The notes under the pieces are model-generated. The model saw only the letters and a list, made by a program, of their open reading frames with translations, made no database searches and had not been told where the DNA came from. Made by a program: the position numbers and the translations under genes. This document shows, piece after piece, positions 1-15,363 of a stretch of DNA of 64,000 nucleotides. Positions within the stretch are counted from its first letter, which is position 1, and each line of letters opens with the position of its first letter. Source of the DNA: Candidatus Dormiibacterota bacterium (lineage in GTDB: Bacteria > Chloroflexota > Dormibacteria > Aeolococcales > Aeolococcaceae); contig CAWKDT010000020.1 in assembly GCA_963848445.1 (NCBI GenBank), forward strand, positions 261,703 through 325,702. The letters are read 5' to 3'.

Positions 1-91
1 TGTGCTGGTTCGGGGGCTCGACGTGTTCGAGGGTCCACCGGGCTCCGGGCAGGAGCTCGTGCGCCCGCCGGAGCTCGACCTCTTCCGATGA
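1..91 (+). CDS. 3' end of an upstream gene (partial; frame 2 reads ...ELVRPPELDLFR*), its stop overlapping the cofD ATG (ATGA)
   Basis: Frame 2 is open from the window edge to TGA at 89-91; ATGA overlap with the next gene suggests an operon. Identity not determinable from 30 codons. Confidence 0.3.
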   Translation, partial: VLVRGLDVFEGPPGSGQELVRPPELDLFR

Positions 92-1017
92 AGGTCGCGC
101 TCCTCACCGGAGGGACGGGGGGCGCGCGGCTCGCCGCCGGCATGGCCGCGGTGCTCCCGGCCGGTGATCTGTCGGTGATCGTCAACACCGCCGACGACGA
201 GGAATTCTGGGGTCTGCTCGTGAGTCCGGACGTCGATGCGACCCTGTACCGCCTGTCCGGCCTGTTCAACGAGGCCTCGGGCTTCGGGGTCCGTGACGAC
301 ACGTTCAATGCGCTGGCGATGCTGGGAAGGCTGGGAGAGCCGACGTGGTTCCAGCTCGGCGACAGGGACATCGGCCTGCACCTCCAGCGCGCGCAGCTCC
401 TGCGCGACGGCCGCCGCCTCACCGACGCGGTCGCTCATATCGCGCGTCACCTCGGGATCAGTGCGGCGGTGCTCCCGATGAGCGACGACCCGGTGCGCAC
501 TCGCGTCATCACCGACGAGGGTGAGCTGAGCATGCAGGAATGGTTCGTCGGACGGCGGTGCGCCCCGCCCGTTCGCGCCCTGCGTTTTGCCGGCATCGAA
601 TCCGCACGTGCGGCGCCGGAAGCCGTGAGGGCGGTCACCAACGCGGACGTGGTGATCATCGGACCGTCCAACCCGCTGCTCAGCGTCGATCCGATCCTCG
701 CGCTGCTCGGCGACCAGATGGATCGCGAGCGTGTTGCCGCGGTCTCGCCGATCGTCGGCGGCCGTGCACTCAAAGGGCCGACTGTGGAGATGCTCCGTCA
801 GACGGGCGAGGATCCGAGCCCGTCCGGGGTGGCGCGACACTACGCCGGCATCGCGTCGACCTTCGTGATCGACCGCGCCGACGCGGGGATGCGGCAGTCG
901 ATCCGCGAGCTCGGGATGCGCGTGCTCGTCGACGACATCGTCATGGAGGACGCCGCCGGCGAGCGACGAATGGCGGCGACCCTGCTCCAGGAACTAGAGT
1001 TGCGCAATGGCGCATGA
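88..1017 (+). CDS. cofD: 2-phospho-L-lactate transferase (F420 biosynthesis, CofD/FbiA-type)
   Basis: N-terminus MKVALLTGGTGGARL... and overall CofD/YvcK-fold pattern (VIIGPSNPLLSVDPILAL...); 309 aa is typical. Confidence 0.85.
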   Translation: MKVALLTGGTGGARLAAGMAAVLPAGDLSVIVNTADDEEFWGLLVSPDVDATLYRLSGLFNEASGFGVRDDTFNALAMLGRLGEPTWFQLGDRDIGLHLQRAQLLRDGRRLTDAVAHIARHLGISAAVLPMSDDPVRTRVITDEGELSMQEWFVGRRCAPPVRALRFAGIESARAAPEAVRAVTNADVVIIGPSNPLLSVDPILALLGDQMDRERVAAVSPIVGGRALKGPTVEMLRQTGEDPSPSGVARHYAGIASTFVIDRADAGMRQSIRELGMRVLVDDIVMEDAAGERRMAATLLQELELRNGA

Positions 1018-1417
1018 GGCCGCGCTCGAATTCCTTCGACACAACCATCGCGCCCTGCTCGCGACCTACCGCAAGGACGGTCAGGTGCAGCTCTCGCCGG
1101 TCCTCGCCACCGTCGACTCCGAGGGCCGCGCGGTGGTCAGCACCCGCGCAGGAGCGATGAAGACGGTGAATCTCCGGCGCAAGCCCCGCGCCTCGCTCTG
1201 CGCGATCACGGAGCGGTTCTGGGGCGAGTGGCACACCGTCGAGGGCGACGTTGAGATCGTCGACCTTCCCGAGGCGATGGAGCCGCTCGTCGAGTACTAC
1301 CGGGCGACGTCCGGGGAGCATCCGGACTGGAACGAGTACCGCGCGGCGATGCAGAGCGAGGGCCGCGTGCTGTTGCGCATGACGGTCGATCGCAGCGGCC
1401 CGACGAGGCAGGGCTAG
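1007..1417 (+). CDS. PPOX-class/PNPOx-like putative F420-dependent enzyme
   Basis: 136 aa, LEFLRHNHRALLATYRKDGQVQLSPV... typical of the pyridoxamine-5'-phosphate-oxidase-like split-barrel family; overlaps the cofD stop. Confidence 0.6.
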   Translation: MAHEAALEFLRHNHRALLATYRKDGQVQLSPVLATVDSEGRAVVSTRAGAMKTVNLRRKPRASLCAITERFWGEWHTVEGDVEIVDLPEAMEPLVEYYRATSGEHPDWNEYRAAMQSEGRVLLRMTVDRSGPTRQG

Positions 1418-1470
1418 CGCCGCCGTTTCGCGACGCCGCGTCCCTACCGGCACCGGGCCGGCGTGCGTGC

Positions 1471-1812
1471 TCATTTCTTCACCACCGTTGATCCGCCGCT
1501 GACAGTCGTCGCGCTCGATGAGGTGCCTGCGGTCGCGGTGCCCGTCGAAAGCGTTGTGGTCGTGGTCTTGGTGACCGTGCCGTCATCGCCCGCCGACGTG
1601 ACCACTGTCACCGTGCGTGTGACCGGCGCCGTCGGTGACGCTGCGACCGTCGACACGGTCGCCTTGGTCGCGGCGTTCACCGCGATGAGGTAGCCGGCGG
1701 CGCCGACCGCGGTGACTCCGGTGGCCGCGGCGAGCGCGTTGATCTTGCGACGAAGTCTGAGCGCGCGATCGCGCCGCTCCACACGGTTTCGATCAGATGG
1801 CGTGCCGTTCAT
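1471..1812 (-). CDS. hypothetical single-pass membrane protein with Thr/Ser-rich extracytoplasmic tail
   Basis: ATG at 1812 (MNGTPSDRNRVERRDR...), basic N-terminus, one hydrophobic helix (AAATGVTAVGAAGYLIAV), then a T/S-rich low-complexity tail. Confidence 0.35.
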   Translation of the reverse strand: MNGTPSDRNRVERRDRALRLRRKINALAAATGVTAVGAAGYLIAVNAATKATVSTVAASPTAPVTRTVTVVTSAGDDGTVTKTTTTTLSTGTATAGTSSSATTVSGGSTVVKK

Positions 1813-1857
1813 GTGAGGGCTCCCTGGTTGTCGGAAATGACAACCACCACGGTGCAT

Positions 1858-2065
1858 TTCGCGTCTGAAGACCCGCTGCGCGGTTGCTCGGAGTCCGCTG
1901 TGAAAACGCTCGAGTGCGATCCCGACACGAATTCAGGTTTTGAAAGAACATCGGATCAGTTGTCACAGGAATATGGGATGCCGACCCGTATCCTGCCCGC
2001 GGCGGGACGCGACTTAGTGGCATGGATCCGGCGCCGTAGCGCGCCCACTACCTGGAGGACACGAT
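1858..2065. promoter_or_regulatory. divergent intergenic region, locally AT-richer, with a GGAGGA RBS 6 nt before a TTG start at 2066
   Basis: The only relatively AT-rich stretch in the first 3 kb (…gaattcaggttttgaaagaacatcgg…), lying between divergently oriented genes. Confidence 0.2.
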
Positions 2066-2431
2066 TTGCGCCCTCGTCATCGCCCCCGCTTCCTCACGAC
2101 CGCTACCCTCGTGGCGCTGTGCGGCGCCGTGACCGGCCTCGCGGCCGCCGGAGGCGTCGGCCCGTTCGCCTCGCTTGGAACGCCGGCGCAGCACACGGTC
2201 GCGGCCCATCTGCAGGGTGCCCCGTTGCGCGCGGACAGCCTGTTCCCGGTTCCCACGCGGCCCCCGGCCACCCACGAGGTCATCGAGGTCACCGACCCGC
2301 CCGTGCGCTCCGCCGCTCCATCGACGCCGTGGCCTCAGACAGCCGCGCCGGAGACGGCGGCACCGACATCGGCCTCGTCCCCGACCCCGACACCCTGTGA
2401 TGACGACTGCGGCGGCGGGGGTGACCACTGA
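2066..2431 (+). CDS. hypothetical secreted Pro-rich protein
   Basis: TTG start after GGAGGA; signal-peptide-like N-terminus (RPRHRPRFLTTATLVALCGAVTGLAAAGG); Pro/Thr-rich; ends CDDDCGGGGDH. The alternative frame (2175..) is Arg-rich junk. Confidence 0.4.
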   Translation: MRPRHRPRFLTTATLVALCGAVTGLAAAGGVGPFASLGTPAQHTVAAHLQGAPLRADSLFPVPTRPPATHEVIEVTDPPVRSAAPSTPWPQTAAPETAAPTSASSPTPTPCDDDCGGGGDH

Positions 2432-2432
2432 C

Positions 2433-2819
2433 ATGGCCGAGTACCGACCCTCCGACCGCGACAGCGCGTTCCGACGGGTCGCGTCGTGGACGACCGGCGG
2501 CGTCTCCGGTGTCATCGTCCTGACGGGCGCGCTCTCGGCCGCAAGCGCGGCCAGCTTCGCGGCGGCTGCCGCGTCCTCGAGCGCTCCCACGGCGCCGCCC
2601 ATTCCCCCGGAGACGGCCCCGGTGCAGGGTGTTCGCCCAACCCCGGCGGTGATCGTCCAGGTGGTCCACGTCCCTGCGTCGGCCGCGGGCTCGGCCGTGC
2701 GCTCGCGCGGAATCGCCGCGCCTCGCAAGCGGCCTTCGGGTGGCGGCAGCTCTTCGGCGCCACCCCCGCCACCCCCGCCACCCCCGGTCTGTCACTCGAC
2801 GCCCTCGCACCCGTGCTGA
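2433..2819 (+). CDS. hypothetical membrane-anchored protein with a poly-proline tract
   Basis: ATG at 2433; one TM helix (VSGVIVLTGALSAASAASFAAAAA); ends GGGSSSAPPPPPPPPPVCHSTPSHPC immediately upstream of apbE. Confidence 0.4.
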   Translation: MAEYRPSDRDSAFRRVASWTTGGVSGVIVLTGALSAASAASFAAAAASSSAPTAPPIPPETAPVQGVRPTPAVIVQVVHVPASAAGSAVRSRGIAAPRKRPSGGGSSSAPPPPPPPPPVCHSTPSHPC

Positions 2820-2839
2820 ACTCGGCTTCCTTCAGGGCC

Positions 2840-3733
2840 ATGGGCAGCACGGTGGTCGTGGCCGTGGAGGATCCTGCCGCCCTCGATCTCGCGATGTCCG
2901 CCGCTCGTTCGGTGGTGGCGTCGATCGACGCCACGTGCAGCCGCTTCCAAGCCGATTCCGAGCTGAGTCGGGTCAACGCCGCGGCGGGGGGCGGCTTCGT
3001 CGAGCTGTCCGAACTCCTCGACGAGGCGATCGGCGTGGCGCTCGAGGCAGCGGCAGCCACCGGAGGACTCGTCGATCCCACGATCGGAGCGCTCATCGAG
3101 CGCGCCGGATACACCGTGACCTTCAACGACCTGCCGCTCGACGGACCCGCGATCGACCTCGAGGTCCGATCCGCCCCCGGCTGGGAGACCGTGCGGCACG
3201 ATCGGCGCGCCCGTGCTCTGGCCCTGCCACATGGCGCGTCGCTCGATCTTGGCGCCGTCGGGAAGGCCTGGGCGTCGGACCGGGCCGCGCTCGCGGCGGC
3301 TCGGCGTATCGGCGCGAGCGCGCTCGTCGCGTGCGGCGGCGATGTGGCGGTTGCGGGCCCGGAACGCCCGGAGGGCTGGCGCGTCCGCGTGACGGAGTCC
3401 CCCGATGCCGGCGGGTGGCAGGACGTGCTCATGTTCGATGGCGGCCTCGCGACCTCCGGGACCGGGAGCAGGACGTGGCGGCGGGGCGGCGAGACCCTCC
3501 ACCACATCCTGGATCCGTCGACGGGCCTGCCCCCCGTCTCCCCATGGGTGATGGCAAGCGTCGCGGCTGCCACGTGCGCCGGAGCGAATGCGGCCGCCAC
3601 GGGGGCGATCGTCATGGGCGACGGGGCGCCGTCCTGGCTCGCCGCCCAGGGCCTGCCCGCCCGTCTCGTCCAGCGCGACGGGTCGGTGGTCACCGTCGGA
3701 CACTGGCCGGATCAGGCCGCGGCAGGATCGTGA
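2840..3733 (+). CDS. apbE: FAD:protein FMN transferase (ApbE family)
   Basis: ApbE hallmarks: MGSTVVVAV start, DATCSRF, GGLVDPTIGALIE, GAVGKAWASD, HHILDPSTG; about 298 aa. Confidence 0.8.
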   Translation: MGSTVVVAVEDPAALDLAMSAARSVVASIDATCSRFQADSELSRVNAAAGGGFVELSELLDEAIGVALEAAAATGGLVDPTIGALIERAGYTVTFNDLPLDGPAIDLEVRSAPGWETVRHDRRARALALPHGASLDLGAVGKAWASDRAALAAARRIGASALVACGGDVAVAGPERPEGWRVRVTESPDAGGWQDVLMFDGGLATSGTGSRTWRRGGETLHHILDPSTGLPPVSPWVMASVAAATCAGANAAATGAIVMGDGAPSWLAAQGLPARLVQRDGSVVTVGHWPDQAAAGS

Positions 3734-4740
3734 TGGTCGGAGCAGCTTCGACGGGACCGAGCCCGCTGTGGTTCGCGACGCGCGGCGCCGGAGTCATGAC
3801 CCTCGTGTGCCTGACCGTGGTCGTGATCCTCGGGATCTCGACCTCCCTCCGGGTGCAGGGCCGGCGCACGCCGCGCTTCGTGACGGCGGCGCTGCATCGG
3901 AACTTCGGCCTCTTCACCCTTGTCCTCCTCGCCGTCCACATCGTCACCTCGGTGCTCGATCCGTTTGCGGGCATCCGACCGGCGGACGCGGTGATCCCGT
4001 TTGCCGGCGCATACCGCACGGTCTGGCTCGGCCTCGGGGTGATCGCGGCCGAGGTGCTGGTGGCCGTCACGGCGACGAGCCTCCTTCGGGGGCGCATCGG
4101 ACCGCGGGTCTGGAAGCTCATCCACTGGGCCACGTACGCGTCATGGCCGATTGCGCTCGCCCACGGGCTCGGGACCGGCTCCGACGCCCAGGCGCCCTGG
4201 ATGCTCGGCCTCACCGCGGCCTGCATGGCTGCCGTCCTCGTCGCGCTCGCGCGACGGTTGCTCGCCGGACGGCTCCGCACCGCGCCGGTTCGGGTTGGAG
4301 CGGCCGGTGTGGCCGTGGTCGCAACGTACGCGCTCTGCGCGTGGGCGGCCGGTGGACCGCTGCAGCCCGGTTGGGCCGTGAAGGCCGGAACCCCGCGATC
4401 GATCCTGTCGTCGGGGTCGAGCACGCATCTGGCCCGATCCACGAGGAACGGATTCGCCGACCAGGTGATCGGCACCCTCACGAGCACCCCGGGGAACGTC
4501 GGGATCGCGCTGCGGGACACCGTGGACACGAGCCTCACCGTGGTGATCACCGAGCCCGGACCGACGCAGACGCTGCCGCAACTGACCGTCGCGCGCGACG
4601 GCAGGACGGTGTGCGCGAATGTCCCCGCGCGGGCCGGTGTCTCGTTCTACGCGGTCTGCGGCACGACGCGCCTGGTGATCACGCTGTACGGAACCGGGCC
4701 GTCGATCAGCGGTCGCATCGTCACCTCGGGGCCGCTGTGA
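3733..4740 (+). CDS. ferric-reductase-like (FRD/MsrQ-like) polytopic membrane protein with a C-terminal extracytoplasmic domain
   Basis: ATG overlaps the apbE stop (TGATG); 5–6 predicted TM helices with conserved His (VHIVTSVLDPF, LIHWATYASWPIALAHGLG); about 130-aa non-membrane C-terminus. Confidence 0.6.
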   Translation: MVGAASTGPSPLWFATRGAGVMTLVCLTVVVILGISTSLRVQGRRTPRFVTAALHRNFGLFTLVLLAVHIVTSVLDPFAGIRPADAVIPFAGAYRTVWLGLGVIAAEVLVAVTATSLLRGRIGPRVWKLIHWATYASWPIALAHGLGTGSDAQAPWMLGLTAACMAAVLVALARRLLAGRLRTAPVRVGAAGVAVVATYALCAWAAGGPLQPGWAVKAGTPRSILSSGSSTHLARSTRNGFADQVIGTLTSTPGNVGIALRDTVDTSLTVVITEPGPTQTLPQLTVARDGRTVCANVPARAGVSFYAVCGTTRLVITLYGTGPSISGRIVTSGPL

Positions 4741-6047
4741 CCCAGGCAACGCTGATCCGCACCGCGCCGGTACCACCGACGCTCGGCGCGCCCTCGCCCG
4801 ATCCGCGGCTGCTCGCGGGCCCCGCCCTGCACCGCGGTTCCGAGAGCTTCGCCGAGCACCGATCCCGGCTCGGCCGCCGCCCCGTCGGCGGCGAATGGCT
4901 GCTCGACGTCATCGAGCGTGGCGGGCTTCGCGGCCGGGGCGGGGCGTGGTTTCCCACGCACCGCAAATGGCGGTCCGTGCGCCGCCTCACCGGCCTTCGC
5001 GGACCGTCGGTCATGGTCGTCAACGCCTCGGAGGGCGAGCCGCTCTCCGCCAAGGACCGCGTCCTGGCCGAGCACCGCCCGCATCTCCTCATCGACGGTG
5101 CGCTGATCGCCGCCGAGACGGTCGGAGCCGACGAGGTGGTGATCTACCTGTCGCGGCCGTCGCGCGCCATGACCCGGAGCCTCAAGCAGGCGCTCGCGGA
5201 TCGGCACGGCGATGACGGCCGTGCGCTGCCGATCAGGATCGTCCATACCCAGCATCGGTACGTCGCCGGCAAGTCCTCCGCCGTCGTCCGCCGCCTCAGT
5301 GGCGGCCAGTCCAAACCGTCGTTCGCTCCACCGCACCCCTCGGAGCGCGGCGTCCTGGGCAGGCCGACCCTGGTGCAGAACGCCGAGACCCTCGCGCACG
5401 CCGCGCTCATCGCACGGTTCGGCGACGCGTGGTACCGCGAGCGCGGCACCGACGACGCGCCCGGCACGGGGTTGGTGACGATCACCGGCAACGTCGCGGA
5501 GCCCGGCGTCTACGAGGTCGACCTCGGCTCCGAGCTCGTCGCCGCCGTGGCTGGCGCCGGCGGTGTGCTCTCCAGGCCGATCGGCGTGCTGGTGGGCGGT
5601 TACTTCGGCACCTGGCTCGACGCCGAGCGGGGAGCCCGGGCGCGACTCACCCCTTCGGAGGTGTCGCTCGGGTGCGGGATCATCGGGATGCTCGGCGACG
5701 ACGCGTGCGGCATCGCCGAGTCCGCCCGGATCGTCCGCTATCTCGCTCGTGAGAGCGCTGGCCAGTGCGGGCCGTGCGTCTACGGCCTTCGTGACATCGC
5801 CGAGGCGATGACACGTCTCGCATCGGGCGATGCCGACAGGGGGGACGTGCACCGCATCCATCGATGGTCCGACCAGGTCGCCGGCCGGGGCGCCTGTCAC
5901 CATCCCGACGGAGCGATCCATAACCTCCGGAGCGCGCTCGAGGTCTTCGCGCCTGATGTGGAGCGGCACCTCGCGGGCCGGGCATGCTCGGGCAGGAGCC
6001 GCACGCCGCTCCCTCCGCCCCCTCGAATGCGGAGGGGATGGCGATGA
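4737..6047 (+). CDS. NuoF-like (complex I 51-kDa family) NADH-binding FMN/4Fe-4S flavoprotein, standalone
   Basis: GTG at 4737 overlaps the previous stop; motifs GRGGAWFPTHRKW (NADH), VNASEGEPLSAKDR (FMN), ESAGQCGPCVYG (4Fe-4S). Confidence 0.75.
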   Translation: MTQATLIRTAPVPPTLGAPSPDPRLLAGPALHRGSESFAEHRSRLGRRPVGGEWLLDVIERGGLRGRGGAWFPTHRKWRSVRRLTGLRGPSVMVVNASEGEPLSAKDRVLAEHRPHLLIDGALIAAETVGADEVVIYLSRPSRAMTRSLKQALADRHGDDGRALPIRIVHTQHRYVAGKSSAVVRRLSGGQSKPSFAPPHPSERGVLGRPTLVQNAETLAHAALIARFGDAWYRERGTDDAPGTGLVTITGNVAEPGVYEVDLGSELVAAVAGAGGVLSRPIGVLVGGYFGTWLDAERGARARLTPSEVSLGCGIIGMLGDDACGIAESARIVRYLARESAGQCGPCVYGLRDIAEAMTRLASGDADRGDVHRIHRWSDQVAGRGACHHPDGAIHNLRSALEVFAPDVERHLAGRACSGRSRTPLPPPPRMRRGWR

Positions 6048-6271
6048 GCGACCAGGACCCGCGCCTGCAGGTCAATCCGATCCTCTGCGACGGTGTGGGG
6101 TACTGCGCCGAGATCGTCCCGGAGCTCGTCGGGCTCGACGACTGGGGCTACCCGATGGTTTCGGCCGACCCGGTTCGCGATCCGGCGCTCCTGCGCATGG
6201 CCGAACGCGCCGTGAGCCAGTGCCCGAGGGTGGCGTTGCTCCTCAGCCGCCGGGCAGACCGCGCCGGCTGA
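6044..6271 (+). CDS. small mono-cluster ferredoxin
   Basis: 75 aa; CDGVGYC…CP cysteine pattern; GGAGGGG RBS 6 nt upstream; ATGA overlap with the NuoF-like gene. Confidence 0.6.
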   Translation: MSDQDPRLQVNPILCDGVGYCAEIVPELVGLDDWGYPMVSADPVRDPALLRMAERAVSQCPRVALLLSRRADRAG

Positions 6272-6275
6272 GGAT

Positions 6276-7013
6276 CTAGTTATCCGGCGGGGGGCTGCCA
6301 CCCGGCGAGGCCGAGCCCGAGTGATTGTCGTCGCTGCCACCGCCGCCGCCATCGGTCGGCCTTGGGCTGCGGCTCTGCGAGGACCGTGGGGTCTCACCGT
6401 TGCCGCCTGACGAGTCCGTCGGCTCCGGCTCCTTCTCCGTCTCGGTCGGACGCGGCGCCGGGCTACCGGCTGCCGGGATACGTTCGTCAGGCTCGAGGCC
6501 CGATTCGTCGGCTGTCAGTGTCGCTTCGTCCGTGTGATACCGGACCCACAGCGCGGACGTCCGGTCGGCGGGCAGCTCGGGCAACGCGGCCGCAAGCTCG
6601 CTCCTCGCGTCCGCGAGGCTCTGTTCGGGATCCACTCCGCCGTGCGCTTCGGCAAGCGATGCCTCAGCGAACTGCAGATGGAGCTCGGCGTCGTTGGATC
6701 CTGGAAGCTTGAGCATCACGCCCTGGCGCGCGGCACGGACCGCGAAGAGCGCCGACCCCGGCGCGGCGTTCCAGCCGGCTGCCGCCACGCCGACGGTCGC
6801 GGCGAGCGTCGCGGTGGCCGCGATGAGCCCGGCGTGCCGGAAGCGGAGCCGGAAGAGCGGCGCACGCGCGCGTGGAGCGGTGGCACTGGACGCCAGCGCC
6901 GCGAACATGGCGTCCTGGGCGCGCTCGCGCGCGTGACGGCGCGGCTCCCGGCGGCTCGTCCGGCGCCAGGCGCCGAGCTGCGCCGACAGGAGGGGATCGA
7001 TCACGTCGGTCAT
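6276..7013 (-). CDS. putative membrane-anchored anti-sigma factor
   Basis: Start overlaps the ECF sigma stop (ATGA); cytoplasmic N-terminus, single TM (LIAATATLAATVGVAAAGW), Pro/Gly/Ser-rich C-terminal tail. Confidence 0.5.
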   Translation of the reverse strand: MTDVIDPLLSAQLGAWRRTSRREPRRHARERAQDAMFAALASSATAPRARAPLFRLRFRHAGLIAATATLAATVGVAAAGWNAAPGSALFAVRAARQGVMLKLPGSNDAELHLQFAEASLAEAHGGVDPEQSLADARSELAAALPELPADRTSALWVRYHTDEATLTADESGLEPDERIPAAGSPAPRPTETEKEPEPTDSSGGNGETPRSSQSRSPRPTDGGGGGSDDNHSGSASPGGSPPPDN

Positions 7014-7594
7014 GCCGCCCTCCCGGCGTCGAGTGCGCGACGGAGTGACTCCAGCGCCCGGTGCTGCATCGATTTCACCGCGCCGAGGCTGCGCCTCGTG
7101 TTGAGCGCCACGTCCTCGATCGACTGGTCGAGGACGAATCGGCGCACGAGGATGTCCTGCTGCTCGTCGGTGAGCCGGACCATGGCGGCGCGTACCCGAT
7201 CGGACTCAAGGTTGATCTCGGCGATCGCGCTCGGATCCGGCGCGAGGGACTGTCCGGGGTTGACGGTGTTCGCGCGATATCGGACGGCCCGCCGGATGTG
7301 GTCGACGACCTTGTTCCGGCAGATGTGCAGAAACCATGCCTGCACCGCGGGTTCCCTCCGATCCCGAAGGTTTCGGATCGATGTCACTGCAGCTACGAAC
7401 ACGTCTTGTGCCACATCCTCAGCCGACGTCACGTCCCCGAGGCGCGCGAGCGCGTACGCATGCACGTCCGGGTAAAAGCGCTCGAACAGTGCGCTCCACC
7501 CGCGAGCCTCGCCGCGCTGTGCGGCCTCTACCGCCTGCGCGAGGCGGTTGGGATCTGCCAGGCTCTCGCCGCCTCGATCGCTTTCATCGAACAT
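7010..7594 (-). CDS. ECF-type RNA polymerase sigma-70 factor
   Basis: Region-2 (FERFYPDVHAYALARLGD…AEDVAQDVFV) and region-4 (LTDEQQDILVRRFVLDQSIEDVA…GAVKSMQHRALESLR) motifs; start chosen at MFDESDRGG. Confidence 0.85.
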   Translation of the reverse strand: MFDESDRGGESLADPNRLAQAVEAAQRGEARGWSALFERFYPDVHAYALARLGDVTSAEDVAQDVFVAAVTSIRNLRDRREPAVQAWFLHICRNKVVDHIRRAVRYRANTVNPGQSLAPDPSAIAEINLESDRVRAAMVRLTDEQQDILVRRFVLDQSIEDVALNTRRSLGAVKSMQHRALESLRRALDAGRAA

Positions 7595-8028
7595 CAAGTC
7601 GCTGGAACTCGCCTCCGGGATACGGGCAGGCGCCTCAACGGTGAAGGACGCAGGCCCGCCCGCCGCCGAACGTGGCGTCGCAGGTGTGCGACAGCCTGGA
7701 ACAGGGTAGAGCTCCACCAGCCCTGCGGGCGGGTGCGCCGGCGACACCGAGCTTCGACGGCACGAACCTCCCCGGGCAGACCGGGCACCCCGCGCGACCG
7801 GAGCCCTGCTCGCCACCGACACGTCAGCAGGACGGGTGCGATATGTGTACATGGCCGCGGGCGATGCGATCGCCCTGGCTGCGGGCAGCGACGGCACCGT
7901 GTATCTCGCGACACAGGGCAACGGGATCGCGGCCGCCACCGCCCCCTGAGGCGCACCGCGAAAGGCGCATACGCCGGTGCCGGCGCGGACGCGAAGCGCC
8001 CGTCCGGCGGGTCGGTCCATGTGGCAGC

Positions 8029-9135
8029 ATGGGACGGCTCATGGCGACGACGCCGCTGCTCATGATCCCCGGGCCGACGCCGGTTGCGCCCGACGTGCTA
8101 GCCGCGCTCGCCGAACCGGTGCGCAACCACACGGGCCCCGAGAACGCCGCCACGATGGTGCGCATCCAGGAGGGAATCCGCCGGCTGGCGGGCTCGAGCG
8201 AAGCGCGGGTGCACTGCTTCGCGGGATCCGGCACGCTCGCGATGGAAACCGCCCTGGTCAACCACGCGTCGCCCGGTGACCGTGTGCTCGTGGTCAGCCA
8301 CGGGTACTTCGGCGACCGGTTCACCGAGATCGCCGCGGCACTGGGGATGCGCCCCGAGGTACTGCACGTCGAGTGGGGAGCGCATGCCGACCCGGACGCG
8401 CTGCGCGACCTCATCGGCGGAGGCGACGCGCCGTCGCTCGTGTGCATGACCCACGTCGACACGAGCAGCGGCGTCCTCGCCGATTGCGCCGTCCTCGCGT
8501 CGACAGTGCGAGCGGCGGCGCCGGATGCGCTCATCGTGCTCGACGGCGTCTGCGCCACCGGTGGCATGGAGGAGCGCATGGACGAGTGGGGGGTCGACGT
8601 CGTGCTCACCGGTGCGCAGAAGGCGCTGAGCGTTCCGCCCGGGCTCGTCGTGCTCGCGGTGTCGGAGCGAGCGCGGCATCGCAGGGAATCGCTCGGCGGC
8701 ATCCGCGCGTACTACGCGGACCTGCGCCGTTGGGACGCGTCCGTCGACGATCCCCGCAAATACTTCTCGACGCATGCGGTGTCACTGCTGCGCGCGCTCG
8801 AGGTGTCCCTTGACGCCATCTTCGGCGAGGGGTTGCCCGCTCGATTCGAGCGGCATCGGCGCGTGGCTTCGATGGTGCGTGACGGCATGGGCGAGCTCGG
8901 GTTCGTGCCGCTCACCGAACAGCCGTACCTCGCGCCGACGCTGAGCGTGCTCGCGCTCCCCGAGGGCGTCGACGACGCGACGCTGCGCGCCGGGATGGCG
9001 GAGCGCGGCGTCGTGATCGCGGGCTGCCTTGGGCCGTGGGCGGGACGCGGCATCCGCATCGGCCACATGGGCACCACCGGCGAGGCGGAGGCTGCGCGCA
9101 CCATCGATGCGGCGGCCGCAGCGCTGGGGCGGTGA
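8029..9135 (+). CDS. class-V aminotransferase (serine/alanine–glyoxylate aminotransferase-like)
   Basis: LLMIPGPTPV N-terminus, GAQKAL PLP-lysine motif, about 365 aa; alternative ATG at 8041. Confidence 0.8.
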   Translation: MGRLMATTPLLMIPGPTPVAPDVLAALAEPVRNHTGPENAATMVRIQEGIRRLAGSSEARVHCFAGSGTLAMETALVNHASPGDRVLVVSHGYFGDRFTEIAAALGMRPEVLHVEWGAHADPDALRDLIGGGDAPSLVCMTHVDTSSGVLADCAVLASTVRAAAPDALIVLDGVCATGGMEERMDEWGVDVVLTGAQKALSVPPGLVVLAVSERARHRRESLGGIRAYYADLRRWDASVDDPRKYFSTHAVSLLRALEVSLDAIFGEGLPARFERHRRVASMVRDGMGELGFVPLTEQPYLAPTLSVLALPEGVDDATLRAGMAERGVVIAGCLGPWAGRGIRIGHMGTTGEAEAARTIDAAAAALGR

Positions 9136-9167
9136 CTTCCGGAACCAGGCGCACGCCGGTATGACGA

Positions 9168-10619
9168 GTGCTTGAGACGCCGGTCCTCGAACAGCTTCGC
9201 GCCGCCGTCGGCGCCGATGGGCTGATCACCGAGCCCGCGGCGCTGCGCACCTACGCGTGCGACGGGCTCACCGGACGGCGGGTCTCCCCCGCCGCGGTCG
9301 CGCTGCCCGCGACGACCGAGCAGGTGGCCGCCGTGGTGCGGAGTTGCGCGGCGGCCCGCGTTCCGTTCGTCGCCCGCGGCGCCGGCACCGGTCTGTCCGG
9401 CGGAGCACTCCCGGTCGCCGATGGCGTGGTCATCGGCCTCAGCAGGATGCGGTCGATCTTGAAGATCGACCTCGACAACCAGCAGGTCACCGTCCAACCC
9501 GGCGTGACCAACCTCGAGGTGAGCAAGGCGGTGCGACCGCTGGGATATTTCTACGCGCCGGATCCGTCGTCGCAGCAGGTGTGCACGATCGGCGGCAACG
9601 TCGCGGAGAACTCCGGCGGTGCGCACTGCCTCAAGTACGGGTTCACCACGCACCACGTGCTCGGTGCGACGTTCGTCACCGCCGACGGACGCATCGCCCG
9701 GCTCGGCGGCGCCGTGCGCGACTCCCCCGGCTACGACCTGCTCGGCGTCGTCATCGGCAGCGAGGGAACCCTCGGCATCGTGACCGAGGTCGTGCTGCGC
9801 ATCGTGCGCGTGCCGGAGTCCACGGAGACGATCCTCGCGGCGTTCTCGAGCATGGGTGATGCGGGTGAGGCCGTCTCGCGCATCATCGCCGCGGGGATGA
9901 CGCCGGCGGCAATCGAGATGATGGACCGGCTGGCGATCCAGGCGTGCGAGGAGACGGTGCACGCGGGCTATCCGGACTGCGGCGCCGCACTGGTCGTCGA
10001 GCTCGACGGTCCCGCTGTCGAGACCGTCGCGCTGCTCGCTCAGGTCACCGAGATCTGCACCGCGAGCGGCGCGACGAGCATCCGCGTCGCCGCCGATGAC
10101 TCGGAACGCGCGCTGATCTGGAAGGGGCGGAAGGCCGCGTTCGCCTCCATGGGAAGGATCAGTCCGGACTACTACGTGCAGGACGGCGTCATCCCTCGAA
10201 CGAGGTTGCGCGAGGTGCTTGAATCGATCGGCGACCTCTCCGCGGCGTACGGGTTGCGCGTGGCCAACGTCTTCCACGCCGGCGACGGCAACCTGCATCC
10301 CCTGGTGCTGTACGACGGCGCGGAGGCGGGGGCCGCGGAGCGCGCGCTCGAGCTGGCCGGCAAGATCCTCGGATCGTGCGTCGCCGCCGGGGGATCGATC
10401 ACCGGCGAGCACGGGGTCGGGTCGGACAAGGCCTGCCACATGCCCGCGATGTTCAGCCCCGAGTCGCTGTCGGTGATGGGCCGGGTGCGCGACGCGTTCG
10501 ACGATCGCGATCTCTGCAACCCGGGAAAGGCGCTGCCGACGCCGCGGCTGTGCGGCGAAGTTCCCGGCGTGTACCGCCCCCATGCCGCCGAGCTGGCGGG
10601 CCTGGCGGAGCGCATGTGA
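9168..10619 (+). CDS. glcD: glycolate oxidase FAD-linked subunit GlcD
   Basis: FAD-binding-4 domain (RGAGTGLSGGALP) plus C-terminal FAD-linked oxidase domain (GSITGEHGVGSDK); GTG start. Confidence 0.85.
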   Translation: MLETPVLEQLRAAVGADGLITEPAALRTYACDGLTGRRVSPAAVALPATTEQVAAVVRSCAAARVPFVARGAGTGLSGGALPVADGVVIGLSRMRSILKIDLDNQQVTVQPGVTNLEVSKAVRPLGYFYAPDPSSQQVCTIGGNVAENSGGAHCLKYGFTTHHVLGATFVTADGRIARLGGAVRDSPGYDLLGVVIGSEGTLGIVTEVVLRIVRVPESTETILAAFSSMGDAGEAVSRIIAAGMTPAAIEMMDRLAIQACEETVHAGYPDCGAALVVELDGPAVETVALLAQVTEICTASGATSIRVAADDSERALIWKGRKAAFASMGRISPDYYVQDGVIPRTRLREVLESIGDLSAAYGLRVANVFHAGDGNLHPLVLYDGAEAGAAERALELAGKILGSCVAAGGSITGEHGVGSDKACHMPAMFSPESLSVMGRVRDAFDDRDLCNPGKALPTPRLCGEVPGVYRPHAAELAGLAERM

Positions 10620-11839
10620 TGGTCGCCGCCGAGAGAGCCCTCGATGTGTTCGCCGCCATCGTCGGCGCCGATCAGGTCCGCGAGGCGCGACCCGCGGACG
10701 CGGTGGGCGGGGTGGTTCCGCGCGTCGTGGTGTCGCCCGCAGACGAGCCCGAGGTCGCGGCCGTGCTCGCCGCGGCAACCCGCGAACGCCTCGCGGTCGT
10801 GCCACGCGGCGGCGCAACCAAGCTCGGCTGGGGCATGCCGCCGCGGCGCTGCGACGTCGTGCTGTCGACGGCGCGCATCGCCGGGATCGTCGACCACGAG
10901 CCCGCCGACCTGGTCTGCGTGGTCCGCGCCGGAACACTGCTCGCGGCACTCCAGCGGACGCTCGCCTCGACCGCAGGCTTCCGCCAGCGGCTGATGCTCG
11001 ACCCCGCTCACGGGGATGCGGCGACCGTCGGCGGGGTCGTCGCGACCGCGGCGAGCGGACCGTTGCGCACCCGGTTCGGCACGCCGCGCGACCTCGTGAT
11101 CGGTGCCGCCTTCGTGCTCGCTGACGGCACGGCCGGCCGCAGCGGCGGGAAGGTCGTCAAGAACGTGGCCGGCTTCGATGTGGCCAAGCTCCTCGTCGGC
11201 TCGATGGGAACGCTCGCAGTGATCACCGAGGTCGCGGTGCGCCTGCACCCGCTCCCGGAGGCGTCGCGAACGGTGCTGCTCGAGTCGCGGTCCATCGACG
11301 ACCTGTGCTCATGTGCACGCGGTCTCGCGCGGCTTCAGGTGACGCCGAGCGTGGTCGATCTCCATCTGCCGGATGGCCTCGTGCTCGTGCGCTTCGACAG
11401 CTCCGAGCGCGGGGCGACGCTCCAGGCCGAGCGCGTGATCCGAGAGATCGGCGGCCGCATGGTGCGTGACGGCGAGGCGGCGTCACTGGCCAGCCGGTAT
11501 GAGCGGTCGCCGTGGTCGGAGGATGGCGCCGTCGCCGCGCTTGCGGTGCTGCCGGCACGCGTCGCGGAGCTCGTGACGTCGATCGCCGGTATGTGTGATG
11601 CCGTGGTGATGCGCCCCTTGCTCGGCACCGGAGAGGCGCGGTTCACGCCGGATGCCGCGGCGGCCGTTCGCGCCGCGGCGGAACGATGCGGCGGTCGCGT
11701 GACGGTGAGGCGCGGGCGCGCGGACGGCGAGCCCGAGGGCGGGATCGACGCCGTCGCCCTTGACCTCATGCGGTCGGTGAAGGGTCAGCTCGATCCGGCC
11801 GGAACGTTGAGTCCAGGCCGCCTGACCGGTGGCATCTGA
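10619..11839 (+). CDS. glcE: glycolate oxidase FAD-binding subunit GlcE
   Basis: TGATG overlap with glcD; FAD-binding-4 domain (VVPRGGATKLGWG, KNVAGFDVAKL). Confidence 0.75.
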   Translation: MVAAERALDVFAAIVGADQVREARPADAVGGVVPRVVVSPADEPEVAAVLAAATRERLAVVPRGGATKLGWGMPPRRCDVVLSTARIAGIVDHEPADLVCVVRAGTLLAALQRTLASTAGFRQRLMLDPAHGDAATVGGVVATAASGPLRTRFGTPRDLVIGAAFVLADGTAGRSGGKVVKNVAGFDVAKLLVGSMGTLAVITEVAVRLHPLPEASRTVLLESRSIDDLCSCARGLARLQVTPSVVDLHLPDGLVLVRFDSSERGATLQAERVIREIGGRMVRDGEAASLASRYERSPWSEDGAVAALAVLPARVAELVTSIAGMCDAVVMRPLLGTGEARFTPDAAAAVRAAAERCGGRVTVRRGRADGEPEGGIDAVALDLMRSVKGQLDPAGTLSPGRLTGGI

Positions 11840-13226: not shown

Positions 13227-13300
13227 CCATCGAGGACATCGTGGCGTTCATACGCACGCAGAAGCTCGGCGTCGTCGGCTAGGGATCACAGTCGATCCAC

Positions 13301-14449: not shown

Positions 14450-14457
14450 CCGCTGCG

Positions 14458-15363
14458 TCAGCTCGCCGTCGCCGCCTCGAGCACTGCCAGGATCCCTGCC
14501 TCCCGATCGTCGATGAGCGCGTGCAGCGCCTGGCGCTGTGACGCGTTGAGCGTCTGCAGTGGCGGCCGCACCGCATCGTCGATCTCCACCCCGCGGCGGC
14601 GGAGGATGAACTTCAGCGCGGAGAGGAACGGGACCCGTTCGATCGAGTGGCGGATCCGCGCAGCGCGTGCGCTTGCGTCGGGCGTCCGCTCGGTGACCGC
14701 CGCGATCGTCAGCTCGGGAAGCGCCGCCGCGAGCCCGGAGACGGCGCCCGCCGCACCCAACGCCAGGCCCTGGTCGATGAGACCCTCGGCACCGATGAAC
14801 ACATCGAGGCCGGGGAGCAGGTATGGCTCGACGCGCTCGAACGGCGCGTCGGAGACCTTGAGCCCCGCAAGGTTCGGCGCGGTGGCTCGCAGCCGCTCCA
14901 CGACCGCGATCGGCACGGAGTACCCGCTCCGCGCGGCGAACTCATAGACGTAGAACGGCGTCGGAGCGCACGCGCTCGCCGCGGCGTCGAGGTGCCGCCA
15001 GATCGAGTCGGCGTCGAGGGCGAAGTACGGGGGAGGGATGACCGCGACGCCGGCGGCGCCGTTGCGCGCCGCGTGCTCGGCGAGCACGATCGTGTCCCGG
15101 GTGGTCTGCGCGCCGCAATGCACGATGATCGGGATGCGGTGCGCCGCCGTCGACAGGAAGCGCTCGGCCACACCGCGGCGCTCCTCCACCGAGAGCAGGA
15201 TCCCCTCGCCGGTGGTGCCGAGCGCGAGGAGGCCGTCGAGCCCGGACCTCACATAGAAGTCGACGAGGTCGCCGATCGCGTCGGCGTCCACGCCGGCGCC
15301 GCCCTCGCGCAGGGGCGTGACCGCGGCGGCCAGCGTGCCACGGAGCCGGGGTGCCGCGACCAT
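14458..15363 (-). CDS. DapA/DHDPS-family lyase (4-hydroxy-2-oxoglutarate aldolase or HypD-like candidate)
   Basis: ATG at 15363 (MVAAPRLRGTLAAAVTPL); TIM-barrel lyase motifs (GTTGEG, VIPPPYF); the long upstream extension of the ORF is Arg/Ser junk. Confidence 0.75.
   Translation of the reverse strand: MVAAPRLRGTLAAAVTPLREGGAGVDADAIGDLVDFYVRSGLDGLLALGTTGEGILLSVEERRGVAERFLSTAAHRIPIIVHCGAQTTRDTIVLAEHAARNGAAGVAVIPPPYFALDADSIWRHLDAAASACAPTPFYVYEFAARSGYSVPIAVVERLRATAPNLAGLKVSDAPFERVEPYLLPGLDVFIGAEGLIDQGLALGAAGAVSGLAAALPELTIAAVTERTPDASARAARIRHSIERVPFLSALKFILRRRGVEIDDAVRPPLQTLNASQRQALHALIDDREAGILAVLEAATAS

What the first reader, a model, noticed from the sequence alone, without database searches (positions are those of the whole stretch)
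2840..6271. apbE – ferric-reductase-like membrane protein – standalone NuoF-like flavoprotein – ferredoxin operon
Four tightly coupled genes (overlaps TGATG, GTGA and ATGA) encode:
- an FMN-transferase (ApbE);
- a heme-type FRD/MsrQ-like membrane protein with a roughly 130-aa extracytoplasmic C-terminal domain;
- a soluble complex-I 51-kDa-family protein with complete NADH, FMN and 4Fe-4S motifs but no NuoE/NuoG partners;
- a mono-cluster ferredoxin.
This is a plausible modular trans-membrane electron-transfer chain: cytoplasmic NADH → NuoF-like FMN/Fe-S → ferredoxin → membrane di-heme → extracytoplasmic (possibly flavinylated) acceptor. In effect it would be a NOX-like reductase split into separate polypeptides, with ApbE supplying covalent FMN on the outside.
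I do not recognise this gene combination as a described system.
Basis: partly seen in the sequence, partly recalled or inferred. Interest (0 to 1): 0.7.

Follow-up and report, generated by a model that had tools for sequence, protein, structure and literature searches.

The report
Split NOX-like reductase with flavin-tag proteins

Summary
The four overlapping genes exist as described: ApbE, a di-heme ferric-reductase-like (FRD) membrane protein, a NuoF-like flavoprotein and a 3-Cys ferredoxin. The host is a Dormibacterota relative, not an actinobacterium. The gene order is kept in 61 of 80 related loci across Dormibacterota, Chloroflexota and some Actinomycetota.

The combination is not undescribed. 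Méheust et al. 2021 defined "MsrQ-like" flavinylation-associated systems and noted 31 clusters with a NuoF-like gene.

- ApbE has no signal peptide in any locus, and a conserved active-site Asp is always Asn.
- The FRD C-terminal domain is an 8-stranded beta-barrel, not an FMN-binding domain, and is lineage-specific.
- The NuoF-like protein lacks one of the four canonical cluster cysteines.

A better candidate substrate emerged. A family of small single-pass membrane proteins sits next to apbE in most loci (window 1471-1812, minus strand). They end in [AG]H[VA][ST][TS]GGS, close to the 7-residue ApbE motif D-x-x-[S/T]-G-A-[S/T].

Verdict: a new variant of a known kind. The flavin-tag idea is inference and is directly testable.

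The parts
1471..1812 (-). Small single-pass membrane protein (113 aa), the candidate ApbE substrate. It has a basic N-terminus (DRNRVERRDRALRLRRK), one TM helix, a Thr/Ser-rich tail, and ends ...ATTVSGGSTVVKK.
   Evidence: A profile built from the N-terminal part of 47 tag-type small ORFs in related loci hits this ORF at E 8.5e-6 among 676 window ORFs. By tblastn it is homologous to the small genes directly upstream of apbE in L028, L070, L079, L055 and others (E 1e-11 to 1e-4), and it is conserved in L001-L006, L013 and L014. Database homologues keep 'T[VA][ST]GGSTVV'. It has no Pfam hit.
1489..1509 (-). Flavinylation-like motif T-T-V-S-G-G-S (residues 102-108). Ser108 is the predicted attachment site by analogy with the known motif.
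   Evidence: The motif family consensus is [AG]H[VA][ST][TS]GGS. The published ApbE motif is D-x-x-[S/T]-G-A-[S/T].
2066..2431 (+). up1: a small protein with an N-terminal hydrophobic anchor or signal, a Pro/Thr-rich tail, and a C-terminal CDDDCGGGGDH.
   Evidence: The GC3 phase supports coding. It is conserved upstream of the cassette in L001-L016. JGI gene callers independently call an equivalent gene in L084 and L085. It has no Pfam hit.
2400..2819 (+). up2: a small single-pass membrane protein (alternative start ATG 2433) with a poly-Pro tail ending VCHSTPSHPC. Its N-terminal part is homologous to the tag-type small proteins.
   Evidence: The small-protein profile hits it at E 2e-4. The C-terminus C-H-S-T-P-[ST]-[HRKL]-P-C is conserved in 18 loci and in L084/L085. 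Neither Pfam nor NCBIfam gives a hit.
2813..3733 (+). ApbE-family FAD:protein FMN transferase homologue. It starts at GTG 2813 or ATG 2840, has no signal peptide, and carries Ser206-His222-Asn250 where V. cholerae ApbE has Ser241-His257-Asp285.
   Evidence: Pfam PF02424 hits at E 2e-48. The N-termini of all homologues were examined. The motif 'AN[ATIG]A[AS]T' replaces 'ADAxxT' in every locus. The residue spacing was checked against the review text.
3733..4740 (+). Ferric-reductase-domain (MsrQ-like) di-heme membrane protein of 335 aa with 6 TM helices. His55/His69 and His131/His144 are the candidate heme ligands. The N-terminus and the C-terminal domain are predicted outside.
   Evidence: Pfam PF01794 scores 38.3 bits. 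The AlphaFold2 model has mean pLDDT 84. Foldseek matches SpNOX, STEAP1/2, NOX5 and DUOX1. Invariant residues are listed. Loop K+R counts are 2.7-3.8 on one side and 0.1-1.4 on the other.
4354..4737 (+). Extracytoplasmic C-terminal domain of the FRD protein. It has the linker motif GPLQPGWAxxAGTP followed by an 8-stranded beta-barrel with two invariant Cys.
4737..6047 (+). Stand-alone NuoF-like flavoprotein of 436 aa. It has an FMN loop (GRGGAWFP), a degenerate NADH motif (AGKSS), and a cluster motif SAGQCGPC...GACHHPDG with only 3 of the 4 canonical Cys.
   Evidence: Pfam hits are PF01512, PF10531 and PF10589. TIGR01959 scores 216 bits against a cutoff of 558.65.
6044..6271 (+). Mono-cluster ferredoxin of 75 aa with Cys15, Cys21 and Cys60 (C-x5-C...CP), probably of the [3Fe-4S] type.
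   Evidence: Pfam Fer4_15 hits at E 8e-7. The three Cys are invariant in 66-70 homologues, and the middle position of C-x2-X-x2-C is never Cys.

Best explanation
This is a conserved transmembrane electron-transfer cassette of the 'MsrQ-like' flavinylation-associated class. In effect it is a NOX-type reductase split into separate polypeptides.

**Proposed electron path (inferred)**
1. NAD(P)H is oxidised by the soluble NuoF-like flavoprotein, which carries FMN and one Fe-S cluster.
2. Electrons pass through the 3-Cys ferredoxin to the cytoplasmic-side heme b of the FRD membrane protein.
3. They cross the membrane to the outer heme b.

**Proposed role of ApbE (inferred)**
- ApbE most likely attaches FMN to a short flavin-tag-like motif near the C-terminus of a small single-pass membrane protein encoded beside the operon.
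- In the window this is ...TTVSGGS..., in the gene at 1471-1812 on the minus strand.
- In relatives the protein ends in [AG]H[VA][ST][TS]GGS.
- It does not modify the FRD C-terminal domain.
- The FMN would sit on a long Thr/Ser-rich tether and serve as the extracytoplasmic electron acceptor or shuttle of the outer heme.
- ApbE lacks any export signal, so flavinylation would have to occur in the cytoplasm before the tail is translocated.

**What is shown**
- Gene identities and gene order.
- Family-wide motif conservation.
- Absence of a signal peptide on ApbE.
- The predicted fold of the FRD protein and of its C-terminal barrel.
- The statistical association of tag-bearing small ORFs with the cassette.

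**What is inferred**
- Every electron-transfer step.
- Flavinylation of the tag, and the side of the membrane on which it happens.
- The terminal acceptor, which remains unknown.
For: **The cassette**
- The full order apbE-frd-nuoF-fd is kept in 61/80 species-level loci from three phyla. Nine more loci are consistent but cut by contig ends.
- Independent JGI/NCBI gene calls give the same cassette with no FMN_bind neighbour.
- Méheust et al. 2021 proposed the same general logic for MsrQ-like clusters with NuoF-like genes.

**The FRD protein**
- It has a bis-His heme motif, and its predicted fold resembles NOX and STEAP.
- Its topology follows the positive-inside rule.
- One 5-TM FRD is fused to a NuoF-like protein, P0342.

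**The small tag proteins**
- 57/86 loci carry at least one profile-matched small ORF with [ST]G[GAST][ST] in its last 12 residues. Only 1.1% (87/8069) of other ORFs do.
- The last 8 residues are strongly conserved while the rest of the tail is variable low-complexity sequence.
- The gene usually lies immediately upstream of apbE.
- The tag gene and the apbE-frd pair stay together even where nuoF and fd are absent.
- The window has its own copy.

**Published precedent**
- The ApbE motif is only 7 residues, D-x-x-[S/T]-G-A-[S/T].
- It works best at a protein terminus.
- It tolerates loss of the Asp.
- Ser is accepted as the attachment residue.
- Cytosolic ApbEs exist.
Against: - No experiment bears on any step.
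- The tag has Gly where the canonical motif has Ala, and His or Thr where it has Asp.
- In the window clade the tag is not at the extreme C-terminus.
- The second small protein, up2, ends in CHSTPSHPC, which is not a flavinylation motif.
- ApbE has Asn at the position of the conserved Asp285, so its activity may be altered.
- The topology conflicts with the model. The tail is predicted outside (basic N-terminus, tail lacking K/R in most Chloroflexota copies) while ApbE is predicted inside. I know of no precedent for flavinylation followed by Sec-type export.
- The N-terminal motif is not a convincing Tat signal.
- I could not confirm that the 31 published NuoF-like clusters are this same cassette, because the supplement was truncated in the library.
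Confidence: 0.5

Rival explanations
1. ApbE acts outside the cell and flavinylates the roughly 130-aa C-terminal domain of the FRD protein, which becomes the extracytoplasmic FMN acceptor.
For: The C-terminal domain is predicted to be extracytoplasmic and well folded. apbE and frd are translationally coupled.
Against: ApbE has no signal peptide in any locus. The domain has no FMN_bind or DUF2271 hit and no [S/T]GA[S/T] motif. Its predicted fold is an 8-stranded beta-barrel, unlike FMN_bind. Most Chloroflexota homologues lack the domain entirely, having a 190-205 aa 5-TM FRD, yet keep apbE.
Confidence: 0.05
2. ApbE has a purely cytoplasmic job in this cassette. It might load or covalently fix FMN on the NuoF-like protein or on a cytoplasmic loop of the FRD. 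It might act as an FAD pyrophosphatase or FAD-binding subunit. Under this reading the small proteins are unrelated accessory, regulatory or envelope proteins.
For: ApbE lacks an export signal. Cytosolic ApbEs that serve cytoplasmic flavoenzymes are known. The Asp-to-Asn change at a conserved active-site position hints at altered chemistry. The window clade's up2 tail lacks the tag.
Against: No [S/T]G[AG][S/T]-type motif is conserved in the NuoF-like, FRD or ferredoxin proteins. The apbE-frd pair persists without nuoF and fd in 7 loci. This reading does not explain the strict conservation of a flavinylation-like heptapeptide on the adjacent small proteins.
Confidence: 0.22
3. The physiological outer-face partner is a lipocalin-like or YceI-like beta-barrel that holds a lipophilic redox ligand such as an isoprenoid quinone. 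The cassette would then resemble a cytochrome b plus YceI pair, with the flavin tag only accessory.
Confidence: 0.12
4. It is an ordinary MsrPQ methionine-sulfoxide repair system whose MsrQ happens to lie next to unrelated redox genes.
For: Automatic annotations call the homologues 'sulfoxide reductase heme-binding subunit YedZ'.
Against: No MsrP (molybdopterin) gene was found among the roughly 45 window proteins scanned against Pfam or in the annotated relatives. The partner genes are conserved and translationally coupled.
Confidence: 0.02

Closest known systems
MsrQ-like flavinylation-associated electron-transfer systems (Méheust et al. 2021, eLife, PMC8238504)
   Same: Both have a PF01794 di-heme membrane protein clustered with apbE. 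A subset of 31 published clusters has a NuoF-like (PF10589) gene proposed as the NAD(P)H-oxidising input. [quoted passage not shown]
   Different: The published class 'typically' includes an FMN-binding-domain gene and was filtered for signal peptides or lipidation sites. Here there is no FMN_bind gene and ApbE has no signal peptide. ApbE has Asn at the Asp285 position. The candidate substrate is a small membrane protein with a terminal heptapeptide tag. The system has not been characterised experimentally.
NADPH oxidases and STEAP reductases (NOX2/NOX5/DUOX, SpNOX, STEAP1-4)
   Same: They share the ferric-reductase transmembrane fold with two stacked b hemes on two His pairs (spacing 14 and 13), and they draw electrons from cytoplasmic NAD(P)H.
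   Different: There is no fused FAD/NAD(P)H dehydrogenase domain. The donor module is a separate NuoF-like protein plus ferredoxin. The core has 5 TM helices with the N-terminus outside. ApbE and tag proteins are added.
E. coli MsrPQ with the flavin reductase Fre ('two-component NOX-like system', Juillan-Binard et al. 2017, cited in PMC8238504)
   Same: A stand-alone FRD-family cytochrome b is reduced by a separate soluble cytoplasmic flavoprotein.
   Different: There is no MsrP. The donor is NuoF-like protein plus ferredoxin rather than Fre. ApbE and small tagged proteins are present.
Engineered 'flavin-tag' (Tong et al. 2021, as described in the JBC 2025 review PMC12052999)
   Same: A 7-residue unstructured motif ending in Ser or Thr, placed at a protein terminus, is enough for ApbE to attach FMN. 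The natural small proteins end in a 7-8 residue motif of the same pattern.
   Different: The natural motif is H-x-x-[ST]-G-G-S rather than D-x-x-[ST]-G-A-[ST]. Its flavinylation is untested.
Listeria monocytogenes extracellular electron transfer (Ndh2, EetA/B, FmnB, PplA)
   Same: In the proposed model both use an ApbE-type enzyme and a membrane-tethered flavinylated carrier outside a monoderm-type envelope that is fed from cytoplasmic NADH.
   Different: Listeria uses a quinone pool, an exported FmnB and folded FMN_bind domains on a lipoprotein, with FAD export by an ECF transporter (abstract). Here a di-heme FRD crosses the membrane, ApbE has no export signal, and the carrier would be a bare peptide tag.
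Klebsiella pneumoniae cytoplasmic ApbE and soluble fumarate reductase
   Same: An ApbE without a signal peptide acts in the cytoplasm.
   Different: Its substrate is a folded FMN_bind domain of a soluble cytoplasmic enzyme, not a membrane-protein tail.

Membership tests
ApbE (FAD:protein FMN transferase) | ApbE domain (Pfam PF02424) | tested here: met
   E 2e-48, 165.6 bits against a cutoff of 25.6, covering profile positions 1-258 of 266. PDB ApbE/Ftp structures match at E 1e-23 to 1e-12.
ApbE (FAD:protein FMN transferase) | Conserved active-site residues Ser241, His257 and Asp285 (V. cholerae numbering, per review PMC12052999) | tested here: not met
   Ser206 and His222 are present, but Asn250 replaces the Asp with identical spacing of +16 and +28. 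Asn is found in every homologous locus.
ApbE (FAD:protein FMN transferase) | N-terminal signal peptide or lipobox, typical of extracytosolic ApbE | tested here: not met
   Only 5-20 hydrophilic residues precede the domain. In-frame stops lie 9-12 codons upstream in L066 and L060. Called genes are 295-304 aa.
Ferric reductase domain (FRD) superfamily | Ferric_reduct TM domain with two His pairs for two b hemes | tested here: met
   PF01794 scores 38.3 bits against a cutoff of 28. His55/69 and His131/144 are invariant. Foldseek gives probability 0.97-1.0 to SpNOX, STEAP1 and STEAP2, although E-values exceed 0.001. Heme binding itself was not tested.
MsrPQ | Partner MsrP (molybdopterin oxidoreductase) gene | tested here: not met
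   No Oxidored_molyb hit was found among the roughly 45 window proteins scanned against Pfam or in the annotated relatives.
NADPH oxidase (NOX) | Fused FAD-binding and NAD(P)H-binding dehydrogenase domain | tested here: not met
   No such Pfam domain occurs in the window protein or in 10 long family members.
NuoF (complex I 51-kDa subunit) | Equivalog-level similarity, four-Cys N3 cluster motif, and NuoE/NuoG partners | tested here: not met
   TIGR01959 scores 216 bits against a cutoff of 558.65. The first Cys of CxxCxxC is Ala in all homologues. No NuoE or NuoG is adjacent. The Pfam domains of the 51K family are present.
MsrQ-like flavinylation-associated system (operational definition of Méheust et al. 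2021) | A PF01794 gene in a cluster with an ApbE, FMN-bind, DUF2271 or DUF3570 gene, at least one of which carries a signal peptide or lipidation site | tested here: inconclusive
   PF01794, ApbE and the PF10589 neighbour are present. No FMN-bind, DUF2271 or DUF3570 gene is present, and ApbE has no signal peptide. It therefore fits the concept but not the published filter.
ApbE substrates | Motif D-x-x-[S/T]-G-A-[S/T] | tested here: inconclusive
   The window small protein has T-T-V-S-G-G-S. The family consensus is H-[VA]-[ST]-[TS]-G-G-S. The core [S/T]-G-x-[S/T] is kept, while the Asp and Ala are not. Published mutagenesis shows Asp-to-Ala has a minor effect and changes at the Gly or Ala positions reduce flavinylation to about 50%. 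Flavinylation itself cannot be tested with these tools.
FMN_bind domain (for the FRD C-terminal domain) | FMN_bind fold and sequence with a flavinylation motif | tested here: not met
   No Pfam hit at E of 0.1 or below. The predicted fold is an 8-stranded beta-barrel.
Mono-cluster ferredoxin (Fer4_15) | C-x2-X-x2-C...C-P cluster motif | tested here: met
   PF13459 scores 30.1 bits against a cutoff of 22.4. Three Cys are invariant and X is never Cys, so a [3Fe-4S] type is inferred.

The most novel reading that the evidence does not exclude
A new class of natural ApbE substrate would exist: small single-pass membrane proteins carrying a bare 7-8 residue 'flavin tag' at the end of a long Thr/Ser-rich tether. 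A signal-less, Asn-type ApbE would flavinylate the tag in the cytoplasm before export. The tethered FMN would then act as the extracellular electron carrier of a split NOX-like reductase (NuoF-like protein, [3Fe-4S] ferredoxin, di-heme FRD) in Dormibacterota, Chloroflexota and some Actinomycetota.
Probability: 0.3. Interest if true: 0.8.

Novelty: new variant of a known kind. Interest (0 to 1): 0.6.

Why it matters
Dormibacterota and soil Chloroflexota are abundant and almost entirely uncultured, and how they exchange electrons with their surroundings is largely unknown.

If the model holds, this cassette gives them a compact route from NAD(P)H to the outside. That route would not need a quinone pool, multi-heme cytochromes or folded FMN-binding domains.

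It would also show three further things:
- Nature already uses the minimal 'flavin-tag' that protein engineers devised.
- The list of ApbE substrates would grow. About 4% of apbE genomes were still 'orphan' in Méheust et al. 2021.
- It would raise a new cell-biology question: whether flavinylation can precede export.

Even on the conservative reading, the work corrects the published picture for this subfamily. There is no FMN_bind partner, the ApbE is cytoplasmic and carries an Asp-to-Asn active-site change, and the NuoF-like cluster has a changed ligand set.

Tried and rejected
- **FRD C-terminal domain as FMN_bind.** Pfam and NCBIfam gave no FMN_bind, DUF2271 or any other hit. The predicted fold is a beta-barrel. 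Rejected as the flavinylation target.
- **Small protein fused to ApbE by frameshift or readthrough.** This would export ApbE. The frame relation between the small-ORF stop and apbE varies among loci (worked out). Rejected.
- **Apparent ApbE-FRD fusion proteins.** L078, P0278, P0341, P0367 and P0390 contain Arg-rich out-of-frame stretches at the junction. They look like indel or gene-merge artefacts of MAG assemblies. They were not used as topology evidence.
- **Tat signal on the small proteins.** The motif 'RRLRxΦTΦG' is not invariant; some copies have ARLR, KR or RS. Not convincing.
- **Flavinylation-type motifs in the NuoF-like, FRD-loop or ferredoxin sequences.** None is conserved.
- **Promoter and terminator scan of 1400-6600.** No sites were found, which is uninformative at 72% GC.
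- **Supplement of Méheust et al.** It was searched for the 31 NuoF-like clusters, but the file is truncated in the library.
- **Exact-sequence contig look-up of the window FRD.** Not on record.
- **Structure prediction on cropped locus sequences.** It was redone with the window crop plus full-length database homologues.
- **Literature search for a natural terminal flavin-tag or for Dormibacterota ApbE.** Nothing was found in the held library.

Full report

Yes. On the + strand the window carries four genes:

| Gene | Coordinates | Size |
|---|---|---|
| ApbE | ATG 2840 (or GTG 2813) to 3733 | 297 or 306 aa |
| Ferric-reductase-domain (FRD) membrane protein | 3733-4740 | 335 aa |
| NuoF-like protein | 4737-6047 | 436 aa |
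| Small ferredoxin | 6044-6271 | 75 aa |

- Pfam confirms each assignment: ApbE at E 2e-48; Ferric_reduct at 38.3 bits against a cutoff of 28; Complex1_51K, SLBB and NADH_4Fe-4S; and Fer4_15.
- Third-position GC phase supports these frames.

**2. Where does it come from, and is the arrangement conserved?**

- The nearest genomes are Candidatus Dormibacterota MAGs, at up to 88% identity for the FRD protein.
- I compared the window proteins by tblastn with 80 species-level loci:
  - 61 loci keep the full order apbE-frd-nuoF-fd.
  - 9 more loci are consistent but cut by contig ends.
  - 1 locus is rearranged.
  - 7 loci have apbE-frd without nuoF and fd.
- The loci come from Dormibacterota, Chloroflexota (Limnocylindrales, Chloroflexia) and some Actinomycetota (Gaiellaceae, Dermatophilaceae).
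- Independent JGI and NCBI gene calls show the same cassette with no FMN_bind neighbour.
- The FRD core defines a sizeable family: 301 clusters at 50% identity with E of 1e-30 or better, and 2209 with E of 1e-10 or better.

**3. The membrane protein**

- The AlphaFold2 model has mean pLDDT 84. It shows six TM helices followed by a beta-rich domain.
- His55/His69 in TM2 and His131/His144 in TM4 are invariant. Their spacing is 14 and 13 residues, as in NOX TM3 and TM5 (the NOX spacing is from established knowledge).
- Foldseek finds SpNOX, STEAP1/2, NOX5 and DUOX1 with probability up to 1.0, though the E-values are weak.
- Across 70 homologues the loops after TM1, TM3 and TM5 carry 2.7-3.8 Lys+Arg on average. 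The N-tail and the TM4-5 loop carry about 0.1, and the TM2-3 loop 1.4.
- The N-terminus is therefore predicted outside, and the segment after TM5 inside.
- One 5-TM FRD fused to a NuoF-like protein (P0342) agrees with that.

That C-terminal domain (residues 208-335) behaves as follows:
- It has no Pfam hit.
- Modelled alone, its folded part has block-mean pLDDT of 88-97.
- It is an eight-stranded up-and-down beta-barrel.
- This is not the FMN_bind fold, and there is no [S/T]GA[S/T] motif.
- The domain is lineage-specific. Most Chloroflexota homologues are 190-205 aa 5-TM proteins without it. Actinomycetota homologues carry a different C-terminal domain.
- apbE is kept in all these lineages, so the barrel cannot be the general ApbE substrate.

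**4. ApbE**

- In every locus only about 5-20 hydrophilic residues precede the conserved 'W/F-R-A-[LM]-G-T' domain start.
- In L066 and L060 an in-frame stop lies 9-12 codons upstream.
- There is no signal peptide or lipobox, so the enzyme is predicted to be cytoplasmic.
- Cytosolic ApbEs are known, for example in Klebsiella.
- The subfamily has a signature change. V. cholerae ApbE has the conserved Ser241-His257-Asp285 (review PMC12052999). The window protein has Ser206-His222-Asn250 with identical spacing.
- Asn occupies this position in all homologous loci, as 'AN[ATIG]A[AS]T'.

**5. The NuoF-like protein and the ferredoxin**

- Alignment to complex I NDUFV1 and to the homologues shows the FMN loop is kept (GRGGAWFP).
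- The NADH-site 'GEE' motif is kept in most relatives as GE[ES]. In the window it reads GKS.
- The first Cys of the N3 'CxxCxxC' motif is Ala in every member ('SA[GA]QCGPC').
- Two features are invariant: a Cys 18 residues upstream and a His two residues after the last Cys ('CxHPDG'). Either could be the fourth ligand.
- 'Complete motifs' is therefore an overstatement.
- The protein falls far below the NuoF equivalog cutoff, at 216 against 558.65 bits.
- The ferredoxin has three invariant Cys (C-x5-C...CP). The middle position is never Cys, which suggests a [3Fe-4S] type.

**6. What was missed: small tag proteins**

- The operon does not start at apbE. Two small genes lie immediately upstream, at 2066-2431 and 2400/2433-2819. 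They are coding by GC3 phase and are conserved in the closest relatives. JGI calls them independently.
- In most Chloroflexota and Gaiellaceae loci the gene directly upstream of apbE encodes a small protein with four parts:
  - a basic N-terminus ('DRDRAVxRLR');
  - one TM helix;
  - a Thr/Ser/Ala/Pro-rich tail of 50-100 residues with almost no Lys or Arg;
  - a strikingly conserved end.
- The consensus end is [AG]-H-[VA]-[ST]-[TS]-G-G-S-COOH.
- A profile of the N-terminal part of 47 such ORFs finds two ORFs in the window: up2 at E 2e-4, and a divergent minus-strand gene at 1471-1812 at E 8.5e-6.
- The minus-strand product ends ...ATTVSGGSTVVKK. It is homologous by tblastn to the Chloroflexota proteins at E down to 1e-11.
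- Its relatives keep 'T[VA][ST]GGSTVV'.
- Over 86 loci, 57 have at least one profile-matched small ORF with [ST]G[GAST][ST] in the last 12 residues. Only 1.1% of 8069 other ORFs do. Several further window-clade loci were detected by tblastn only.
- Many Chloroflexia loci have a second copy after a downstream response-regulator and histidine-kinase pair.
- The tag gene, apbE and frd stay together even where nuoF and fd are missing.

**7. Why this points to flavinylation**

The published facts about the ApbE recognition motif are these:
- It is only seven residues: D-x-x-[S/T]-G-A-[S/T].
- It ends at the modified Ser or Thr.
- It works best at a protein terminus.
- It tolerates Asp-to-Ala.
- It accepts Ser as the attachment residue.

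H-x-x-[ST]-G-G-S-COOH has the same pattern. The FMN_bind partner that MsrQ-like clusters 'typically' have is absent here. The tag protein is therefore the best candidate substrate.

This is inference from motif similarity, strict conservation and gene linkage. No tool here can show a covalent flavin.

**8. Open problems**

- *Topology.* The tail is predicted outside and ApbE inside. Either the tag is flavinylated before the tail is translocated, for which I know no precedent, or one of the two predictions is wrong.
- *up2.* In the window clade up2 ends in a Cys-flanked 'CHSTPSHPC' and up1 ends in 'CDDDCGGGGDH'. Their roles are unknown.
- *Terminal acceptor.* It is unknown. There are two hints of an outer-face small-molecule partner: the fused beta-barrel, and a Pfam YceI-domain protein directly upstream of apbE in L036 and L048.

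**9. Comparison with what is known**

- Méheust et al. 2021 defined MsrQ-like flavinylation-associated systems as mostly actinobacterial and typically carrying apbE plus an FMN-binding gene. They noted 31 clusters with a NuoF-like gene as a probable NAD(P)H input.
- Their pipeline removed genes lacking a signal peptide or lipidation site. None of the known substrate domains is present here.
- I could not check whether their 31 clusters are this cassette.
- No paper in the held library describes a natural terminal flavin tag. That library covers open-access papers only.
- No MsrP, FMN_bind or second ApbE was found among the roughly 45 window proteins scanned against Pfam. An ordinary MsrPQ system is excluded.

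**10. Verdict**

- It is wrong on the role and location of ApbE and on the flavinylated target.
- The system is a new variant of a known kind.
- Its most interesting and testable feature is the candidate natural flavin-tag protein paired with a signal-less, Asn-type ApbE.

Noticed in passing
L033, L046, L052, L071, L074, L075; also L023, L036, L056, L067, L079 (about 8000-10600 in locus coordinates): In Chloroflexota loci an OmpR-type response regulator and a histidine kinase follow the cassette, or follow apbE-frd directly when nuoF and fd are absent. A second tag-type small protein gene often comes after them.
   Followed up: partly
L036:4242-5051, L048:4107-5051 (also L032): A Pfam YceI-domain protein (E about 1e-19) lies directly upstream of apbE in these Chloroflexia loci. 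YceI is an 8-stranded barrel, like the domain fused to the Dormibacterota FRD.
   Followed up: partly
P0326 (661 aa) and P0342 (637 aa), from the representative search: One FRD family member carries a C-terminal type I phosphodiesterase / nucleotide pyrophosphatase domain (25.9 bits). Another is a 5-TM FRD fused to a complete NuoF-like protein.
   Followed up: partly
window 4737-6047 (residue 179): The window NuoF-like protein has Lys in the NADH-site motif (AGKSS). All close relatives have Glu (AGE[SL]S). This could be a real substitution or a sequencing error.
   Followed up: no
L078, L013, L063, L068, L073, L077; P0278, P0341, P0367, P0390: Several MAG loci and database proteins show split hits or apparent ApbE-FRD fusions with Arg-rich out-of-frame junctions. 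These are probably indel errors at the 4-nt gene overlap.
   Followed up: partly
window 88-1417: CofD (2-phospho-L-lactate transferase, F420 biosynthesis) overlaps a PNPOx/PPOX-family protein just upstream of the locus.
   Followed up: no
window 6276-8020 (minus strand): A 245-aa protein with no Pfam hit is translationally coupled to a sigma-70-family factor (regions 2 and 4). The pair is convergent with the cassette and may be a sigma / anti-sigma pair.
   Followed up: no
window 9168-15468 and 16346-21746: The first region holds glycolate-oxidase-like genes (two FAD_binding_4/FAD-oxidase_C proteins and a CCG/Fer4 protein), a DAO-family oxidase and a DHDPS-family protein. The second holds a heme-copper oxidase operon (COX1, COX2, CtaG, a thioredoxin-like protein), which points to an aerobic lifestyle.
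   Followed up: no
window 53245-56799 and 59542-63150: There are two paralogous proteins of about 1200 aa. Each combines a double zinc ribbon, an adenylate/guanylate cyclase domain, an AAA_16 ATPase and TPR repeats. A cNMP-binding protein lies between them at 56800-57234.
   Followed up: no
window 2066-2431 and 2400-2819: Both upstream small proteins end in Cys pairs on Pro-rich tethers (CDDDCGGGGDH and VCHSTPSHPC). Both have short conserved internal segments: 'LRADSLFPxPT...HExIxVTDPP' in up1 and 'APVQ...PAVIVQVVHVP' in up2. Their function is unknown; they may be redox-active or metal-binding.
   Followed up: partly
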